A stretch of 64,000 nucleotides of DNA from Escherichia coli (GCA_002099625.1 GCA_002099625.1_4857.1), one strand, 5' to 3'; positions 2,753-63,169 are shown, counted from the stretch's first letter. Translations and numbers: made by a program. Notes: generated by a model not told the origin, from the letters alone.

Positions 2753-2805
2753 GTTAAAACTCCTTAAGATAATGGTCGATTAGATAAGAGTTAATTGTTA
2801 ACTCT

Positions 2806-2829
2806 CACCTAAGTAATATATATCTGAAA
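2806..2829 (-). promoter_or_regulatory. class A phage promoter-like motif
   Basis: Minus-strand TTTCAGATATATATTACTTAGGTG; near-identical copies at 24757, 54641 and 63146, each about 50 nt upstream of a minus gene start. Confidence 0.6.
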
Positions 2830-7623: not shown

Positions 7624-7682
7624 TTTAATTGCTCCTTAATACATGACATAAGTTCTGATTGAAACGTAAATTTCAGAGGTTC

Positions 7683-7706
7683 ACTGAGATAACATCTATC
7701 TGAAAT
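7683..7706 (-). promoter_or_regulatory. class B phage promoter-like motif
   Basis: Minus-strand TTTCAGATAGATGTTATCTCAGTG; related copies at 18184, 26453, 46767 and 47567. Confidence 0.55.
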
Positions 7707-17799: not shown

Positions 17800-17840
17800 A
17801 AAAATAAAAAGAACCCTACCTAACCGAAGTTAGGTAGGGG
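17800..17840 (-). terminator. intrinsic terminator
   Basis: Stem ccctacctaa/ttaggtaggg with ccgaag loop, T-run on minus strand. Confidence 0.7.
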
Positions 17841-22167: not shown

Positions 22168-23169
22168 TTAACATCCTCTCATGCCAGATTGAAACATATC
22201 ACTGATAGTCAGCCTGGTTGTAGTCTCCACCGGAATGCTAGGTTCTTCTTTCAGCACTCGATCGGCGCGGTTCCCATTCACCCGTTTCCAGCTAATAAGT
22301 TCAGGATCGCGTTTCAACGTTAGTGTACGCAGTACCTGCTTGCAACGTAAGATGTTACCGTACAGGTGATTTGCTGGATTATTATCAGCAGCTGTTTCAA
22401 TATAGACTTGGTCGGAATGACGTTGTGCGAAATCGAATAGCGCGCCCATTAGCCGGCGGCCAATGCCACGTTTACGGTGCGTGGGTGCAACGGTTAAACC
22501 AGAAAGTTCAACGACGCCTGGTGTAACCAAGCGCATCTGGGCAATACCGACGATATCATGGCCGTCTCGCCAAATTGCAGTCTCCACATTAGCGTGCTGA
22601 ATTCTTGCTATTACTGTTTCTGCTAACGGACCAATGTGTGTATAGTAGCCACGCATATCGTATTCTAGCTCTTCGCAAATTGCACCGCTAATCAAATTCA
22701 GGATAACGTCTTTATCTTCCTTGGTAAGTTCTGCGTATGCATCACCAGAAATAATCTTGATTTCTGATGCGGTGATTACTTTGTCAAACAGTTTAGAATG
22801 ACATGCCCAAACGATATCTGAAAGAACAAACCCTTTTTCGACCAGTTTTTGTTCAACATCGTCAGTAGGTGCTGGGCACGACATATATTCGAATCCGGTA
22901 TGGTCGAGCACAAGGGCCAAACCAACTTTATCGAATGCCCCAGGTACAAACTCCTCAAAATAGTGACAGGTTAGCGTAGGGTCACCGTGTCGATAGGTGG
23001 CCACTAAATAACCCTCCCAGGTTTCTTTATTCTTCACCACGTAAACAGAATAAGTCTCGTCCTTTAGAAACTCTTTTAGGCGGCGTGCTCGTACAGTATC
23101 GCTACCGACGTTATTTCGGAACTCGGCAGTGCGGATGCTGGTGCGAAACAATTTAGCCACAGTTTTCAT
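22168..23169 (-). CDS. GNAT-family acetyltransferase domain protein
   Basis: C-terminal motif A HRKRGIGRRLMGALFDF; start set at ATG 23169 (MKTVAKLF) so the ORF does not run through the terminator at 23221..23255. Confidence 0.5.
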   Translation of the reverse strand: MKTVAKLFRTSIRTAEFRNNVGSDTVRARRLKEFLKDETYSVYVVKNKETWEGYLVATYRHGDPTLTCHYFEEFVPGAFDKVGLALVLDHTGFEYMSCPAPTDDVEQKLVEKGFVLSDIVWACHSKLFDKVITASEIKIISGDAYAELTKEDKDVILNLISGAICEELEYDMRGYYTHIGPLAETVIARIQHANVETAIWRDGHDIVGIAQMRLVTPGVVELSGLTVAPTHRKRGIGRRLMGALFDFAQRHSDQVYIETAADNNPANHLYGNILRCKQVLRTLTLKRDPELISWKRVNGNRADRVLKEEPSIPVETTTRLTISDMFQSGMRGC

Positions 23170-23220
23170 TGTAATGCCCTCAAAAGGTATTGCTGTCACA
23201 ACATGAGGATAATGCGTAAA

Positions 23221-23255
23221 AAGACAAAAAATTAAGGGGTCCGAAGACCCCTTAA
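23221..23255 (-). terminator. intrinsic terminator
   Basis: Stem aaggggtc/gacccctt with cgaa loop, T-run on minus strand. Confidence 0.7.
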
Positions 23256-23258
23256 TGA

Positions 23259-23915
23259 TTACAGTTCCGGTTTGGAGACAAGCGTCGTCCAAGTTTCGGA
23301 ATGTTTGACACTGACGTGTGCTAGGCGATTCACCATGAACGCAAATTTGTCCATATGTTTCTGCACTTCGTTATCAGTCAGATTGCCAGCGATAACTTTA
23401 CCGTCTTTGGTCAGCACGATATAGCCGTGGTTGTTGTCTACCGTAGTGAACGCCACATCAATCGTAACCGGGTAAAGTTTCACCAGCGTCGGCAGAATGT
23501 GGCCAACACGATCGGCCATACCCGCAAGCTGGCCACAAAGGTCGGCTTTATCCTGCATGAACAAACGCAACATCGCTACTGCAAACACCGGATAGATGTT
23601 TTCGATTTGCGTGTCGTAACGAGACAGGCCGATAACTTCATCACCGCGGGTTAGCACCATGTTGTTCAGATGCGCTCCTTTATAGATGGTAAAGCGTACG
23701 TCGCTACCAAGGTTAACCGAAACGATTTCCTGACCAAGGTCAATCGGAAATTCACGTTCGATGTGAATCGTTTTCAGACGCTCACTGATCGGTACAATCA
23801 CATCCGGCTTCGGAATGCTAGATGTACGCGTGGATTCAGTAGTGCGCGTTTTTGTGGATTTAACCGCGCTGCTTGCCATTGAATCTTTTGCTACAGTTTT
23901 AGGGGCCTTCGCCAT
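23259..23915 (-). CDS. hypothetical protein
   Basis: 218-aa ORF with S/T-rich N-terminus. Confidence 0.5.
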   Translation of the reverse strand: MAKAPKTVAKDSMASSAVKSTKTRTTESTRTSSIPKPDVIVPISERLKTIHIEREFPIDLGQEIVSVNLGSDVRFTIYKGAHLNNMVLTRGDEVIGLSRYDTQIENIYPVFAVAMLRLFMQDKADLCGQLAGMADRVGHILPTLVKLYPVTIDVAFTTVDNNHGYIVLTKDGKVIAGNLTDNEVQKHMDKFAFMVNRLAHVSVKHSETWTTLVSKPEL

Positions 23916-23941
23916 GGTATACTCCTTAAGGTTTACACTAG

Positions 23942-24328
23942 TTAATCCCAGAAAGCTGCTTCTGGAAAGTCGTGTTCAAATGCCCGACGGTCATTCTCTA
24001 CACGGTTTAAATGTGTCGGTAAAGACACGCAGTTATTACAGATACAAAGTTCTTTATCCCCTTGACTGGGGTCAAAGTCGTACCATTTCCATTCAACGGT
24101 ATCTCGTTTCGGGAAGGTACCTTTGCAGTCGTCGCAGACCACTTCTTCAGCTGCAATTTCAGCCTGCAGTTTTTCCCAGCAGTTCTCGCACATGTAGTAC
24201 GTTTCGCGGCCCCATGGGTCGCACTCTGCCGTATAACGTGGAGCTATAGAGCCCACTTTAAGATGTTTACATCGTTCATCCTCTTCCGTCATCACGCGAC
24301 GGGTGATACCATTTACAAACCAATTCAT
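23942..24328 (-). CDS. Cys-rich putative zinc-binding protein
   Basis: Several CxxC pairs (CENCW, CDDCK, CICNNC) in 128 aa. Confidence 0.5.
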   Translation of the reverse strand: MNWFVNGITRRVMTEEDERCKHLKVGSIAPRYTAECDPWGRETYYMCENCWEKLQAEIAAEEVVCDDCKGTFPKRDTVEWKWYDFDPSQGDKELCICNNCVSLPTHLNRVENDRRAFEHDFPEAAFWD

Positions 24329-24339
24329 ACGTTTGCTCC

Positions 24340-24705
24340 CTACATCACTGCAGAAGGTTTACGTGCCATGACTTTAAGTCCCGTATCTCGTACCCGGATA
24401 GGACAATTATTCATGTAATCAATGCAGGATTCAATTTTGAAGCTGTGTCGACATTTACCGTTGATGGAACGGTAGACGATTTCGTAATTCAGGCGCAGTG
24501 TATCGGCAACCCGCATTAACGTTTCAATAGTCACGGCCTTCTCACGTTCATTTTTAATCGCAGATATTTGTGACGGCGAGCAACCTACTAATAACGCAAC
24601 GTCTTTCTGCGTAACGTCCTTCGCAGTAACACGTGTAATAATGTAAGAAAGACGAACCAAAAACGCTTTCTTTGCCAACACAACTGTTTGATGTTTAAAA
24701 CGCAT
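24340..24705 (-). CDS. HTH (XRE/Cro-like) transcriptional regulator
   Basis: Helix-turn-helix signature TQKDVALLVGCSPSQISAIKN; first gene after class A promoter. Confidence 0.55.
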   Translation of the reverse strand: MRFKHQTVVLAKKAFLVRLSYIITRVTAKDVTQKDVALLVGCSPSQISAIKNEREKAVTIETLMRVADTLRLNYEIVYRSINGKCRHSFKIESCIDYMNNCPIRVRDTGLKVMARKPSAVM

Positions 24706-24756
24706 TAGAATACTCCTTTAGATTAATAGTCGATTAGAGAGTTTAGTAGTAACTCT

Positions 24757-24780
24757 CACCTAGGTAATATATATCTGAAA
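24757..24780 (-). promoter_or_regulatory. class A phage promoter-like motif
   Basis: Minus-strand TTTCAGATATATATTACCTAGGTG, followed by hairpin GAGAGTT/AACTCTC and leader TAATCGAC. Confidence 0.6.
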
Positions 24781-24821
24781 TTTAGTGGACTGGAAGCAAA
24801 AAAGCATAAGACTGTTCTGAT

Positions 24822-24866
24822 CTGTAAAAAAGGCAATACCCTCTTACCCGAAGGTAAGAGGGGGTA
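24822..24866 (-). terminator. intrinsic terminator
   Basis: Stem accctcttacc/ggtaagagggggt with cgaagg loop, T-run on minus strand. Confidence 0.75.
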
Positions 24867-24869
24867 CAA

Positions 24870-25493
24870 CTAACCTGCCAAAATTCGTTCAACGATACGG
24901 GCGGCCTGTAACGCCATATCGTCGTCTGCTGCGATTCGCATCAGTGGGAATTTATCACCACCGTCTGTAGTGATGTGGAACGCAAAACGGTAATGGTCGC
25001 GTAATGCGTCCCAATCGGTCTGTGAGCGCAGATACTTCGCTGTCAGTACCTCATCATCCCAGTTCTTACCTTGTGCTTCTACGCGCTTCTTAAAGCGTTC
25101 TGTGGCGGTTTCGTAAGATACATCGGTTGCCACGTAAAGCTTTGGTGCGTTAATGTGGTCTAATACCCGCGAACGGAAAACTTCCCCTTTACCATCTACG
25201 CCCTGGTAGACAATGGTCGATTGACAAAAACGGTCAAAAATAACGACATCGTGCTCTGGTACAACGAAGTCCATTGTATATTGGAAATCCAGACACATCG
25301 CTTTGGCAATACGTTCACTAGAGGCGTGCTGGATAACCAGAGAGCGTGCACTAATACCGGCTTCAGTGGTATTCGTCGGGTGATTGACGATGATGGCATT
25401 AACGCCAGCGGAGCGCAACATCGCTTGAATCATTTTAGCGAGTGTTGATTTGCCAGAAAAATCTGGACCATCCAGCGCCACTGAGTTTAACAT
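24870..25493 (-). CDS. tmk: thymidylate (dTMP) kinase-like P-loop kinase
   Basis: P-loop GPDFSGKST and DRF...YQG motif; start at ATG 25493. Confidence 0.6.
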   Translation of the reverse strand: MLNSVALDGPDFSGKSTLAKMIQAMLRSAGVNAIIVNHPTNTTEAGISARSLVIQHASSERIAKAMCLDFQYTMDFVVPEHDVVIFDRFCQSTIVYQGVDGKGEVFRSRVLDHINAPKLYVATDVSYETATERFKKRVEAQGKNWDDEVLTAKYLRSQTDWDALRDHYRFAFHITTDGGDKFPLMRIAADDDMALQAARIVERILAG

Positions 25494-25549
25494 TTTATTC
25501 TTCCCCAAAAGTTTAATTAATTGTAGTGGTGTCACAATATAGCGACCAG

Positions 25550-25594
25550 ACGTAAAGAAAAAAAATAAAACAGGCACCCCGAAGGATGCCTGAC
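25550..25594 (-). terminator. intrinsic terminator
   Basis: Hairpin caggca..ccccgaagg..tgcctg with long A-run on plus strand (T-run on minus). Confidence 0.6.
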
Positions 25595-25605
25595 ATTAGA
25601 TGTTA

Positions 25606-46766: not shown

Positions 46767-46790
46767 CACGTAGATAATATCTATCTCAGA
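46767..46790 (-). promoter_or_regulatory. class B phage promoter-like motif
   Basis: Minus-strand TCTGAGATAGATATTATCTACGTG. Confidence 0.5.
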
Positions 46791-47566: not shown

Positions 47567-47595
47567 TCTCTCCCTAAGATAATATCTATCTATAA
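47567..47595 (-). promoter_or_regulatory. class B phage promoter-like motif
   Basis: Minus-strand TTTATAGATAGATATTATCTTAGGGAGAG. Confidence 0.55.
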
Positions 47596-54588: not shown

Positions 54589-54640
54589 GGTAATACTCCT
54601 TTAGCTTAATAGTCGATTGAGTTGATAGATTGTCTTCTAT

Positions 54641-54664
54641 CACCTAGGTAATATATATCTGAAA
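54641..54664 (-). promoter_or_regulatory. class A phage promoter-like motif
   Basis: Minus-strand TTTCAGATATATATTACCTAGGTG followed by hairpin GATAG/CTATC and leader. Confidence 0.6.
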
Positions 54665-54689
54665 TTATTTTTATTCAGAGTACACCCTC

Positions 54690-54795
54690 TATAACGCTCT
54701 CAAACGCGTTTTGAGAGCTTTTATCACTTTAGAGGGTCGTTCTACCGTTAGAGTGGCTTTAGAAGGTTGTGTGTGCGTTTAGAGGGCTAAAATAA
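54690..54795. repeat. intergenic palindrome plus four TTAGARKG direct repeats
   Basis: Inverted repeat gctctcaaa-cgcgt-tttgagagc at 54696..54718; repeats tttagaggg, gttagagtg, tttagaagg and tttagaggg follow over about 60 bp. Confidence 0.5.
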
Positions 54796-63100: not shown

Positions 63101-63145
63101 ATTCCTTAAGTAATGGTCAGTTAGTAAAGCAAATCATTGTTTGCT

Positions 63146-63169
63146 CACCTAGGTAATATATATCTGAAA
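63146..63169 (-). promoter_or_regulatory. class A phage promoter-like motif
   Basis: Minus-strand TTTCAGATATATATTACCTAGGTG followed by hairpin GAGCAAA/TTTGCT. Confidence 0.6.

What the first reader, a model, noticed from the sequence alone, without database searches (positions are those of the whole stretch)
23942..24705. HTH regulator and zinc-finger protein as the first class A promoter unit
The class A promoter at 24757..24780 drives an XRE-type HTH protein (24340..24705) followed by a Cys-rich protein with three CxxC pairs (23942..24328). As an early unit this pair is a candidate regulator of the phage transcription programme or of host genes.
Basis: partly seen in the sequence, partly recalled or inferred. 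Interest (0 to 1): 0.45.

Follow-up and report, generated by a model that had tools for sequence, protein, structure and literature searches.

The report
Early jumbo-phage operon: HTH plus zinc protein

Summary
Both ORFs are real genes under purifying selection, orthologues of SPN3US gp101 and gp102. The window is about 95% identical to Seoulvirus phages.

- **HTH protein:** it passes Pfam HTH_3 (XRE/Cro-C1) and is very basic (pI 10).
- **Cys-rich protein:** it has the three CxxC pairs. The conserved ligand set is C-x-H + CxxC and CxxC + CxxC, which gives two zinc sites.
- **Promoter:** the "class A" 25-mer occurs four times in the window (none expected by chance). It matches the published phiKZ/201phi2-1/OBP early promoter consensus, which is recognised by the virion RNA polymerase.

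1. The unit has three genes. A gp103-like ORF (23259..23915) follows with no terminator, and a strong UUCG hairpin terminator closes the unit at 23231..23256.
2. The zinc protein is acidic (pI 4.75), as are 146 of 148 family representatives. It has no structural or sequence relative of known function, so it is more likely a protein-binding module than a zinc-finger transcription factor.
3. The unit is not "first" by position. It is fourth of seven class A units in SPN3US.

No recurrent operator was found, so the HTH target (host or phage DNA) remains unknown. Interest is low to moderate.

The parts
24839..24862 (-). Intrinsic terminator (10-bp stem, UUCG loop, T-rich tail) that ends the upstream thymidylate-kinase unit and insulates the HTH unit
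   Evidence: RNA fold -18.2 kcal/mol, z -4.0. The same arrangement is present in phiEaH2 and Caitlin.
24756..24780 (-). Class A promoter TTTCAGATATATATTACCTAGGTGA, a phiKZ-type early promoter presumed to be read by the virion RNA polymerase. The inferred transcription start is near 24759.
   Evidence: Four copies in the window against none expected. Contains TATATTAC and fits the published N1M2/OBP/201phi2-1/phiKZ early consensus. Conserved upstream of the HTH gene in SPN3US and phiEaH2, and upstream of the unit in Caitlin. The start position is inferred from the statement that the AT-rich core is centred near -10.
24737..24757 (-). Inverted repeat GAGAGTT-N7-AACTCTC at the very 5' end of the predicted transcript (a 5' stem-loop). 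A weak alternative is that it is an operator.
   Evidence: Every class A promoter has an inverted repeat at this position with different or compensatory arms: 4 of 4 in the window and 7 of 7 in SPN3US.
24713..24735 (-). Conserved leader box AATCGACTATTA (24724..24735) followed by the Shine-Dalgarno sequence AAGGAG (24713..24718)
   Evidence: Alignment of the four class A leaders. Also present in phiEaH2.
24340..24705 (-). Gene 1: a 121-aa basic XRE/Cro-C1-type HTH protein, orthologue of SPN3US gp101. It has a long N-terminal helix, the HTH motif (helices 33-40 and 44-51) and a conserved C-terminal beta-hairpin region.
   Evidence: Pfam HTH_3, HTH_26 and HTH_37. phrog_7126. 98% identical to SPN3US gp101. 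AF2 is confident for residues 4-72 only. Nearest solved folds are XRE regulators 2o38 and 2a6c, HigA2, C.Esp1396I and HipB. pI 9.97. Third-position bias 20 of 21.
23942..24328 (-). Gene 2: a 128-aa acidic protein with two predicted zinc sites (C20, H22, C47, C50 and C65, C68, C97, C100), orthologue of SPN3US gp102. It belongs to an uncharacterised jumbo-phage family (phrog_8344).
23259..23915 (-). It evolves fast and has unknown function.
   Evidence: It is 33% identical in STsAS/SPAsTU, where the HTH protein is 73% and the zinc protein 89% identical. Third-position bias 29 of 34. No terminator lies between genes 2 and 3.
23231..23256 (-). Intrinsic terminator (11-bp stem, UUCG loop, T run) that closes the three-gene unit
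   Evidence: RNA fold -17.2 kcal/mol, z -4.7. An equivalent terminator follows the third gene in Caitlin, and one follows the zinc-protein gene directly in phiEaH2.

Best explanation
The locus is one early transcription unit of about 1.5 kb in an SPN3US-like (Seoulvirus) nucleus-forming jumbo phage.

**Transcription.** The unit starts at a phiKZ-type early promoter, which in the characterised relatives is read by the injected virion RNA polymerase. Its transcript begins with a short 5' stem-loop and a conserved leader. It runs through three genes to an intrinsic terminator.

**Gene 1.** This encodes a small, strongly basic XRE/Cro-C1-type helix-turn-helix protein that binds DNA, presumably as a dimer through its conserved C-terminal extension. 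It is translated in the cytoplasm within minutes of infection, while the phage DNA is sequestered. I therefore think its most likely target is the host chromosome, as a host-directed repressor or nucleoid binder (about 0.4). Repression of phage early promoters, including its own, is the main alternative (about 0.25).

**Gene 2.** This encodes an acidic protein held together by two zinc sites. It belongs to an uncharacterised family spread across jumbo phages. It most likely acts by binding another protein rather than DNA.

**Gene 3.** This is a rapidly diverging accessory protein, as expected for a host-interaction factor.

**Shown:** the genes, domains, motif statistics, conservation, terminators and charge. 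**Inferred:** early timing, use of the virion polymerase, DNA binding, zinc binding and all targets.
For: **Identity of the phage.** 95-96% nucleotide identity to SaP7 and SPN3US. The review PMC13282480 lists SPN3US among phages shown to form a nucleus.

**Promoter.**
- The 25-mer occurs four times against none expected.
- It fits the published early consensus of N1M2, OBP, 201phi2-1 and phiKZ (PMC7058600). The review PMC7598289 says such motifs proved to be early promoters in every profiled phage and are thought to be read by the virion polymerase. Early promoters with motifs mirroring phiKZ's were mapped in 201phi2-1 (PMC11512511).
- In SPN3US, 16 such cores all lie on the coding strand upstream of genes, including one before RNA polymerase beta genes gp34-35.

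**Unit boundaries.** Terminators flank the unit. The promoter-HTH-zinc protein order is conserved in phiEaH2, where it is a two-gene unit, and in Caitlin, where it has an extra first gene and a third gene.

**HTH protein.** Pfam HTH_3 above its cut-off. XRE-type nearest folds. pI 9.97 and net charge +11.6.

**Host-DNA precedent.** The XRE protein gp094 of the chimallivirus RAY coats host DNA outside the phage nucleus (PMC10299810). The related phages RAY and Asesino leave host DNA intact.

**Zinc protein.** Invariant or near-invariant ligands across 66 divergent members. A confident model whose ligand pairs sit at a loop plus a helix N-terminus. pI 4.75, and 146 of 148 family members acidic. 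No DNA-binding family match.

**Gene 3.** Fast divergence.
Against: - There are no transcript, proteomic or binding data for this phage. The SPN3US infection proteomics paper (PMC6384053) could not be read.
- RAY gp094 is not an orthologue (hhalign probability 28%), so the host-DNA precedent is only an analogy.
- The host-target idea rests partly on negative evidence: no recurrent palindrome with exact 6-nt half-sites in the 64-kb window.
- The palindrome GAGAGTT-N7-AACTCT lies at +3 to +23 of the HTH protein's own promoter and one other class A promoter. Its arms are kept in phiEaH2, whose recognition helix is nearly identical. Caitlin differs in both helix and palindrome. This fits autoregulation.
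- The C-terminal third of the HTH model has low confidence, so dimerisation is a guess.
- Acidity does not exclude nucleic-acid binding by a local basic patch. I could not inspect the model's surface.
Confidence: 0.6

Rival explanations
1. Autoregulatory or early shut-off repressor. The HTH protein binds the palindrome GAGAGTT-N7-AACTCTC just downstream of its own early promoter, and the similar palindromes at a subset of other class A promoters. It blocks the virion RNA polymerase and helps switch off early transcription, much as Aca proteins or R-M controller proteins repress their own strong promoters.
For: - The palindrome lies at about +3 to +23 of the HTH protein's own promoter and recurs with identical arms and spacing at the class A promoter at 2787..2806.
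- In SPN3US, three of seven class A promoters carry GAGAGTT(AA)/(TT)AACTC arms.
- The arms are kept in phiEaH2, whose recognition helix is nearly the same (SASQISAVK against SPSQISAIK). Caitlin has a different helix (SVSTLGAVK) and a different palindrome.
- Structural neighbours include autoregulatory C-proteins, HigA and HipB.
Against: - All seven class A promoters carry an inverted repeat at the same place with different arms. These include a compensatory pair (GAGAGTTA/TAACTCT against GAGCGTTA/TAACGCT). This is the signature of a hairpin, not of a fixed operator.
- No palindrome recurs three or more times in the window.
- Early phage DNA is thought to be enclosed in the infection vesicle and later in the nucleus (PMC13282480), so the protein would have to reach it.
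- The co-variation argument rests on only three lineages.
Confidence: 0.25
2. The HTH protein and the Cys-rich protein act together as a two-component DNA-binding regulator, with the zinc protein being a zinc-finger transcription factor. Together they set the phage transcription programme or host gene expression.
For: - The genes are adjacent, in the same order and closely spaced (11 nt in the window) in Seoulvirus, phiEaH2-like and Machinavirus phages.
- In phiEaH2 the two genes alone form the promoter-to-terminator unit.
- The opposite net charges (+11.6 and -10.3) would suit a complex.
Against: - The zinc protein and 146 of 148 relatives are acidic.
- The two families are separable. The zinc protein occurs without the HTH protein in pVa-21, RSL2/RSF1, AgentSmith, FishSpeaker and metagenomic contigs. 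The HTH protein occurs without the zinc protein in Miami and in Aeromonas phages.
- Other genes are inserted between them in Asesino and pEa_SNUABM_29.
Confidence: 0.12
3. The zinc protein is an anti-defence or host-takeover inhibitor (a DNA mimic or an inhibitor of a host protein) and the HTH protein is merely a neighbour. The unit is a mixed bag of early accessory genes with no common function.
For: - The zinc protein is an acidic early protein. Many family members carry extra acidic C-terminal tails (median 22% Asp+Glu in 51 extensions).
- The family is spread patchily among unrelated jumbo phages.
- Gene 3 diverges very fast.
- A weak Lar restriction-alleviation match appears in the pVa-21 homologue (E 0.044).
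Against: - No match to any known anti-defence family. The PADLOC scan found nothing for it, although PADLOC models defence rather than anti-defence proteins.
- The Lar match is far below its cut-off.
- The zinc protein is more conserved than the HTH protein between SPN3US-like phages and STsAS (89% against 73%). Such conservation is unusual for an arms-race protein.
Confidence: 0.2

Closest known systems
phiKZ-type early promoters read by the virion RNA polymerase (phiKZ TATATTAC; 201phi2-1 TTTRARR.BTATATTACDWHDGTG; OBP and N1M2 TTTCARRYAKATATTATYWAAGTG)
   Same: The same conserved core and flanks (TTTCAGATATATATTACCTAGGTG). It is placed after a terminator and about 55 nt before the first gene of an operon. 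Multiple copies all lie on the coding strand.
   Different: No transcription start or timing data exist for SPN3US-like phages. Here the motif splits into two subclasses. Class A is always followed by a 5' hairpin and an AATCGACYATTA box. I did not find this described in the papers I read.
XRE/Cro-C1 family HTH regulators with a long N-terminal helix (PDB 2a6c, 2o38; M. tuberculosis HigA2; Pfam HTH_3 and HTH_37)
   Same: Sequence matches above the Pfam cut-offs. The predicted arrangement is a long helix, the HTH motif and a fourth helix. The protein is small and basic.
   Different: No sequence match in the PDB with E-value up to 0.01. Foldseek E-values are only 0.02-0.5. There is no toxin partner. 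A conserved C-terminal region of about 45 residues has no confident model. The family is restricted to jumbo phages.
Erwinia phage RAY gp094, an XRE-family protein that localises on the host chromosome during infection (PMC10299810)
   Same: A small XRE-superfamily HTH accessory protein of a nucleus-forming jumbo phage. It is the only experimental precedent for what such a protein does.
   Different: Not orthologous. BLASTP finds no alignment over the HTH motif, and hhalign gives 28% probability. RAY gp094 is a HigA/VapI-like 96-aa protein in a different genomic context.
Small zinc-ribbon and treble-clef modules (Pfam DZR_2 and DZR, RPB12/RPABC4, eS26, eL24, LIM, PHD and FYVE domains)

Membership tests
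XRE/Cro-C1 HTH (Pfam HTH_3, PF01381) | Whole-protein score above the Pfam gathering cut-off | tested here: met
   32.5 bits against a cut-off of 23, E 9e-8, residues 28-73. HTH_26 scores 29.4 against 22, and HTH_37 scores 27.0 against 27.
XRE/Cro-C1 HTH (Pfam HTH_3, PF01381) | Helical bundle with a helix-turn-helix pair | tested here: met
   The AF2 model has helices 5-28, 33-40, 44-51 and 60-69 with block-mean pLDDT 77-90 across residues 11-70. The top Foldseek PDB hits are all XRE-type regulators.
XRE/Cro-C1 HTH (Pfam HTH_3, PF01381) | Sequence-specific DNA binding, usually as a dimer to an inverted repeat | not testable with these tools
   Only indirect evidence: pI 9.97 and one candidate palindrome at its own promoter.
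Type II antitoxins of the HigA/HipB type | Score above the curated family cut-off and an adjacent cognate toxin gene | tested here: not met
   NCBIfam couple_hipB scores 18.4 bits against 71.65, and HipB scores 13.4 against 79. The neighbouring genes are the zinc protein, gp103 and tmk, with no toxin family hit.
phiKZ-type early promoter (virion RNA polymerase) | Match to the conserved AT-rich core and its flanks | tested here: met
   TTTCAGATATATATTACCTAGGTGA compared with the published consensus strings.
phiKZ-type early promoter (virion RNA polymerase) | [quoted passage not shown] | tested here: met
   Four class A and three variant sites in the window, all on the minus strand. Sixteen sites in SPN3US, all on the plus strand.
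phiKZ-type early promoter (virion RNA polymerase) | Transcription start about 10 nt downstream, active in the first minutes and rifampicin-independent | not testable with these tools
   Known only for phiKZ, 201phi2-1 and AR9.
DNA-binding zinc fingers (C2H2, GATA and similar) | Score above the family cut-off and a basic DNA-contact surface | tested here: not met
   No such Pfam hit for the window protein. Only scattered sub-threshold hits appear in 66 members. pI 4.75, and 146 of 148 relatives are acidic.
Zinc-ribbon / treble-clef metal-binding modules | Four conserved Cys/His ligands per site, arranged as two knuckles | tested here: met
   C47, C65, C68, C97, C100 and H106 are invariant. C20, H22 and C50 are conserved in at least 90% of 66 sequences. 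The positions relative to strands and helices come from the AF2 model.
Zinc-ribbon / treble-clef metal-binding modules | Significant sequence or fold match to a defined ribbon family | tested here: inconclusive
RAY gp094-like host-nucleoid-binding XRE proteins | Homology to gp094 | tested here: not met
   hhalign probability 28%. BLASTP finds no alignment over the HTH motif.

The most novel reading that the evidence does not exclude
The basic HTH protein and the acidic two-zinc protein form a regulator and anti-regulator pair. The zinc protein titrates or releases the HTH protein. This would time either the shut-off of virion-polymerase early promoters or the silencing of the host nucleoid in a nucleus-forming phage. 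The wider zinc-protein family (about 230 clusters) would then be a new class of early jumbo-phage modulators of DNA-binding proteins.
Probability: 0.1. Interest if true: 0.6.

Novelty: new member of a known kind. Interest (0 to 1): 0.27.

Why it matters
How chimalliviruses control the switch from early to middle transcription, and how they deal with an intact host chromosome, is poorly understood. Phage-encoded transcription factors in jumbo phages have been called a neglected topic (PMC7824862).

This unit gives a compact, conserved and clearly bounded early operon to test. It has one DNA binder with a candidate operator at its own promoter. It also has one member of a sizeable uncharacterised zinc-protein family.

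In itself, however, the locus is what GenBank already calls a "putative transcriptional regulator" plus hypothetical proteins. Nothing found here departs from known phage biology.

Tried and rejected
1. **Function of the zinc protein from fold or sequence.** All of these gave nothing:
   - Foldseek against BFVD (family members only).
   - PDB sequence profiles from 9 and from 66 sequences.
   - Pfam on ten long family members, looking for domain fusions.
   - Pfam on 66 members (generic sub-threshold ribbons only).
   - NCBIfam and PADLOC.
   - The afdb50 library was not available.
2. **RAY gp094 as an orthologue of the HTH protein.** Rejected.
3. **HTH partners next to distant zinc-protein genes, and zinc-protein partners next to distant HTH genes.** Pfam found none next to the zinc-protein genes of pVa-21 and RSL2 or in two metagenomic contigs. 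The gene after the HTH gene in Miami is not Cys-rich; the PS1 context was listed but its neighbours were not examined.
4. **The repeat region at 54690..54795 as a dispersed binding motif.** CCCTCTAAA-like words are at chance level outside that one spot (12 found against 10.1 expected).
5. **A recurrent palindromic operator in the window.** No half-site 6-mer with a spacer of 0-12 nt recurs three or more times.
6. **Known RNAs or tRNAs in the region.** None.
7. **Sigma-70-like promoters.** Fewer than chance (7 against 15.6), as expected for a phage independent of the host polymerase.
8. **SPN3US infection proteomics (PMC6384053).** Not held. The SPN3US essential-gene paper does not mention these genes.
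9. **Plus-strand ORFs overlapping the genes (23815..24249 and 24062..24418).** Treated as spurious, because the variation follows the minus-strand frames.

Full report
**What the window is.** The region 23500..25600 is 95-96% identical at the nucleotide level to Salmonella phages SaP7, 1252, SPLA1a and SPN3US (genus Seoulvirus, about 240 kb). The two ORFs of the finding are the orthologues of SPN3US gp101 ("putative transcriptional regulator") and gp102 ("hypothetical protein"). The neighbours are gp100 (thymidylate kinase) upstream, then gp103, gp104 (GNAT) and gp105 (Dam methylase) downstream. A recent review lists SPN3US among the phages shown to form a nucleus (PMC13282480).

**Check of the observation.**
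- *ORFs.* The ORFs are exactly as stated: 24340..24705(-) gives 121 aa and 23942..24328(-) gives 128 aa. Each has a Shine-Dalgarno sequence. The stop of the first and the start of the second are 11 nt apart.
- *Coding.* Both are real genes. Against SPN3US, 20 of 21 (HTH) and 10 of 13 (zinc protein) nucleotide differences lie in third codon positions of the minus-strand frames.
- *HTH domain.* The first protein passes Pfam HTH_3 (32.5 bits against a cut-off of 23), HTH_26 and, just, HTH_37. It belongs to phrog_7126, "HTH DNA binding protein".
- *Cys motifs.* The second protein contains CENC, CDDC and CNNC. Alignments of 9 and then 66 homologues show that C36 and C95 are not conserved. C47, C65, C68, C97, C100 and H106 are invariant, and C20, H22 and C50 are nearly so. 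This gives two four-ligand sites: C-x-H + CxxC and CxxC + CxxC.
- *Promoter.* The 25-mer at 24756..24780(-) occurs four times with at most one mismatch, always on the minus strand, against none expected.

**The promoter is a known kind.** The motif contains TATATTAC, the phiKZ early promoter core. It fits the longer consensus strings tabulated for 201phi2-1 (…TTTRARR.BTATATTACDWHDGTG) and for OBP and N1M2 (…TTTCARRYAKATATTATYWAAGTG) (PMC7058600). Such motifs are found upstream of presumed early operons in every jumbo phage that encodes its own RNA polymerases. Wherever transcripts were profiled they proved to be the early promoters, centred near -10, and they are thought to be recognised by the virion RNA polymerase (PMC7598289; 201phi2-1 mapping, PMC11512511).

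I assembled the whole SPN3US genome from five fetches. In it, 16 cores matching AGATAKATATTAYC with at most one mismatch are found, all on the coding strand. One lies directly before the RNA polymerase beta genes gp34-35. Calling this unit early is therefore a well-founded inference, but no transcript data exist for this phage group.

**The unit has three genes, not two.**
- Upstream, the tmk gene ends in a strong hairpin with a UUCG loop and a T-rich tail (24839..24862; -18.2 kcal/mol, z -4.0).
- Downstream of the zinc-protein gene there is no terminator. A 218-aa ORF (23259..23915, gp103, phrog_32024) starts 26 nt later with its own AAGGAG.
- The first terminator is at 23231..23256 (-17.2 kcal/mol, z -4.7).
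- The layout is conserved with variations. In phiEaH2 (HTH 55% and zinc protein 64% identical) the same promoter, hairpin and leader precede the HTH gene, and a terminator follows the zinc-protein gene directly. In Caitlin (41% and 35%) an early-type promoter precedes an extra 100-aa gene. Then come the HTH gene, the zinc-protein gene and a positional analogue of gene 3, followed by a terminator.
- The HTH-to-zinc-protein order is thus the conserved core within this clade of enterobacterial jumbo phages.

**The HTH protein.**
- AF2 is confident for residues 4-72: a long N-terminal helix, the HTH pair at 33-40 and 44-51, and a fourth helix. It is not confident for residues 73-121. That C-terminal region is nevertheless conserved out to Klebsiella phage Miami.
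- The nearest solved folds are XRE-family regulators 2o38 and 2a6c, M. tuberculosis HigA2, controller protein C.Esp1396I and HipB. The scores are weak (E 0.02-0.5). There is no PDB sequence match.
- It is not an antitoxin by the curated models.
- It is very basic: pI 9.97 and net charge +11.6.
- Homologues occur only in jumbo phages: 83 records from Salmonella, Erwinia, Aeromonas, Klebsiella and other hosts.

**The zinc protein.**
- The AF2 model is confident (pLDDT 89).
- Foldseek against viral models finds only uncharacterised family members.
- An exhaustive profile search finds 230 representative clusters (E-value up to 0.001). Many have variable, often acidic, C-terminal extensions. In two of them the two zinc modules are separated by an insert of about 170 aa.
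- No Pfam domain is fused to it.
- The protein is acidic (pI 4.75, net charge -10.3). So are 146 of 148 family representatives, and the domain alone has a median pI of 4.9.
- I therefore reject "zinc-finger DNA-binding regulator" as the default reading. I favour a zinc-stabilised protein-interaction module whose partner is unknown.

**Are the two proteins a functional pair?**
- *For:* the order is conserved and the spacing tight in Seoulvirus, phiEaH2-like and Machinavirus phages. phiEaH2 has a two-gene unit. The charges are opposite.
- *Against:* the families are separable.
  - The zinc protein occurs without a detectable HTH homologue in Vibrio pVa-21, Ralstonia RSL2/RSF1, Bacillus AgentSmith, Shewanella FishSpeaker and two metagenomic contigs. 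Their neighbours have no HTH hits.
  - The HTH protein occurs without the zinc protein in Klebsiella Miami and in Aeromonas phages.
  - Extra genes separate the two in Asesino and pEa_SNUABM_29.

**What does the HTH protein bind?** I looked for operators.
- The only inverted repeat near its promoter is GAGAGTT-N7-AACTCTC at 24737..24757, just after the inferred start. The same arms and spacing recur at the class A promoter near 2800. In SPN3US, three of seven class A promoters share GAGAGTT(AA) arms.
- phiEaH2 keeps both the arms and the recognition helix. Caitlin differs in both. This fits autoregulation.
- However, every class A promoter (4 of 4 in the window, 7 of 7 in SPN3US) has an inverted repeat at this position with different arms. 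These include a compensatory variant (GAGCGTTA/TAACGCT). That points to a 5' RNA hairpin as the general feature.
- No palindrome with exact 6-nt half-sites recurs three or more times in the window.
- The one experimental precedent is phage RAY gp094, an XRE-family accessory protein that stays outside the phage nucleus and coats the host chromosome (PMC10299810). It is not an orthologue of this protein.
- An early protein is translated in the cytoplasm while the phage DNA is enclosed. Relatives such as RAY and Asesino leave host DNA intact. I therefore rank a host-DNA target first (about 0.4), early-promoter or auto-repression second (about 0.25), and leave the rest open.

**Gene 3.** It diverges much faster than its partners. 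It is 33% identical in STsAS/SPAsTU, where the HTH protein is 73% and the zinc protein 89% identical. It has no domain hits.

**Verdict.** The gene pair is really a three-gene operon. The HTH protein is a new member of a very well-known family. The zinc protein belongs to an uncharacterised but not small jumbo-phage family and is probably not a DNA binder. Nothing here is surprising to a specialist, and the genes are already annotated in this way in GenBank. The interest lies mainly in having a tidy, testable early regulator candidate in a nucleus-forming phage, and in the uncharacterised zinc-protein family.

Noticed in passing
window 2787..2806, 24737..24757, 54626..54645, 63127..63146 (all minus strand); SPN3US 4427, 56294, 65413, 94239, 113986, 165687, 223277: Every class A early promoter is followed, 4-7 nt after the conserved core, by a 5-8 bp inverted repeat whose arms differ between copies. 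One pair is compensatory (GAGAGTTA/TAACTCT against GAGCGTTA/TAACGCT). In the four window copies a conserved AATCGACYATTA box and the Shine-Dalgarno sequence then follow (AACTGACCATTA in one). The repeat looks like a 5'-terminal RNA hairpin specific to this promoter subclass. It is found at 7 of 7 class A sites against 2 of 9 variant sites. I did not find it described in the papers I read.
   Followed up: partly
window 7682..7701, 46767..46786, 47572..47591 (minus strand): A second subclass of early-type promoter core (AGATAGAT[A/G]TTATCT…G[T/G]G) lacks the TAGGTGA box and mostly lacks the hairpin. In SPN3US one such site precedes the RNA polymerase beta genes gp34-35.
   Followed up: partly
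window 54685..54790: A local array lies between a terminator and the class A promoter at 54640..54664. It holds about five CYCTCTAAA-like direct repeats, a near-perfect palindrome AACGCTCTCAAA/TTTGAGAGCTTT (12-nt arms, 92% complementary, 5 nt apart) and the inverted pair ACCCTCTA/TAGAGGGT. The motif is not enriched elsewhere in the window. It could be a binding-site cluster or an origin-like element. Its function is unknown.
   Followed up: partly
window 23259..23915: The gp103 orthologue evolves far faster than its operon partners. It is 33% identical in STsAS/SPAsTU, against 73% for the HTH protein and 89% for the zinc protein. In Caitlin it is replaced by a positional analogue with no detectable similarity.
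   Followed up: partly
window 22168..23292: The mechanical 374-aa TTG ORF runs back across the terminator at 23231..23256. The real GNAT gene most likely starts at the ATG at 23169, which gives about 333 aa and matches SPN3US gp104 (332 aa).
   Followed up: partly
proteins P0053, P0082, P0051 (metagenomic relatives of the zinc protein): In two relatives the N-terminal (C-x-H…CxxC) and C-terminal (CxxC…CxxC) zinc modules are split by an insert of about 170 aa. In a 929-aa protein the whole domain sits at residues 747-871. None of the added regions has a Pfam match.
   Followed up: partly
window 23231..23256, 24839..24862, 25571..25592, 17814..17839: The intrinsic terminators in this region share a stereotyped design: a 9-11 bp stem, a TTCG (UUCG) tetraloop and a T-rich tail.
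   Followed up: no
GenBank records LR535901-LR535917 (some of the Salmonella phage SPFM1-SPFM20 records): Several SPFM phage records match this locus only as many short pieces with frameshifted, truncated protein calls (for example 24-26 pieces over 2.1 kb). This suggests error-rich assemblies rather than real divergence.
   Followed up: no
proteins P0014 and P0022: HTH homologues are deposited under Salmonella enterica (a 39.9-kb contig) and Escherichia coli (a 240.8-kb contig). These are probably jumbo-phage contigs carried in bacterial assemblies, from a carrier state or contamination.
   Followed up: no
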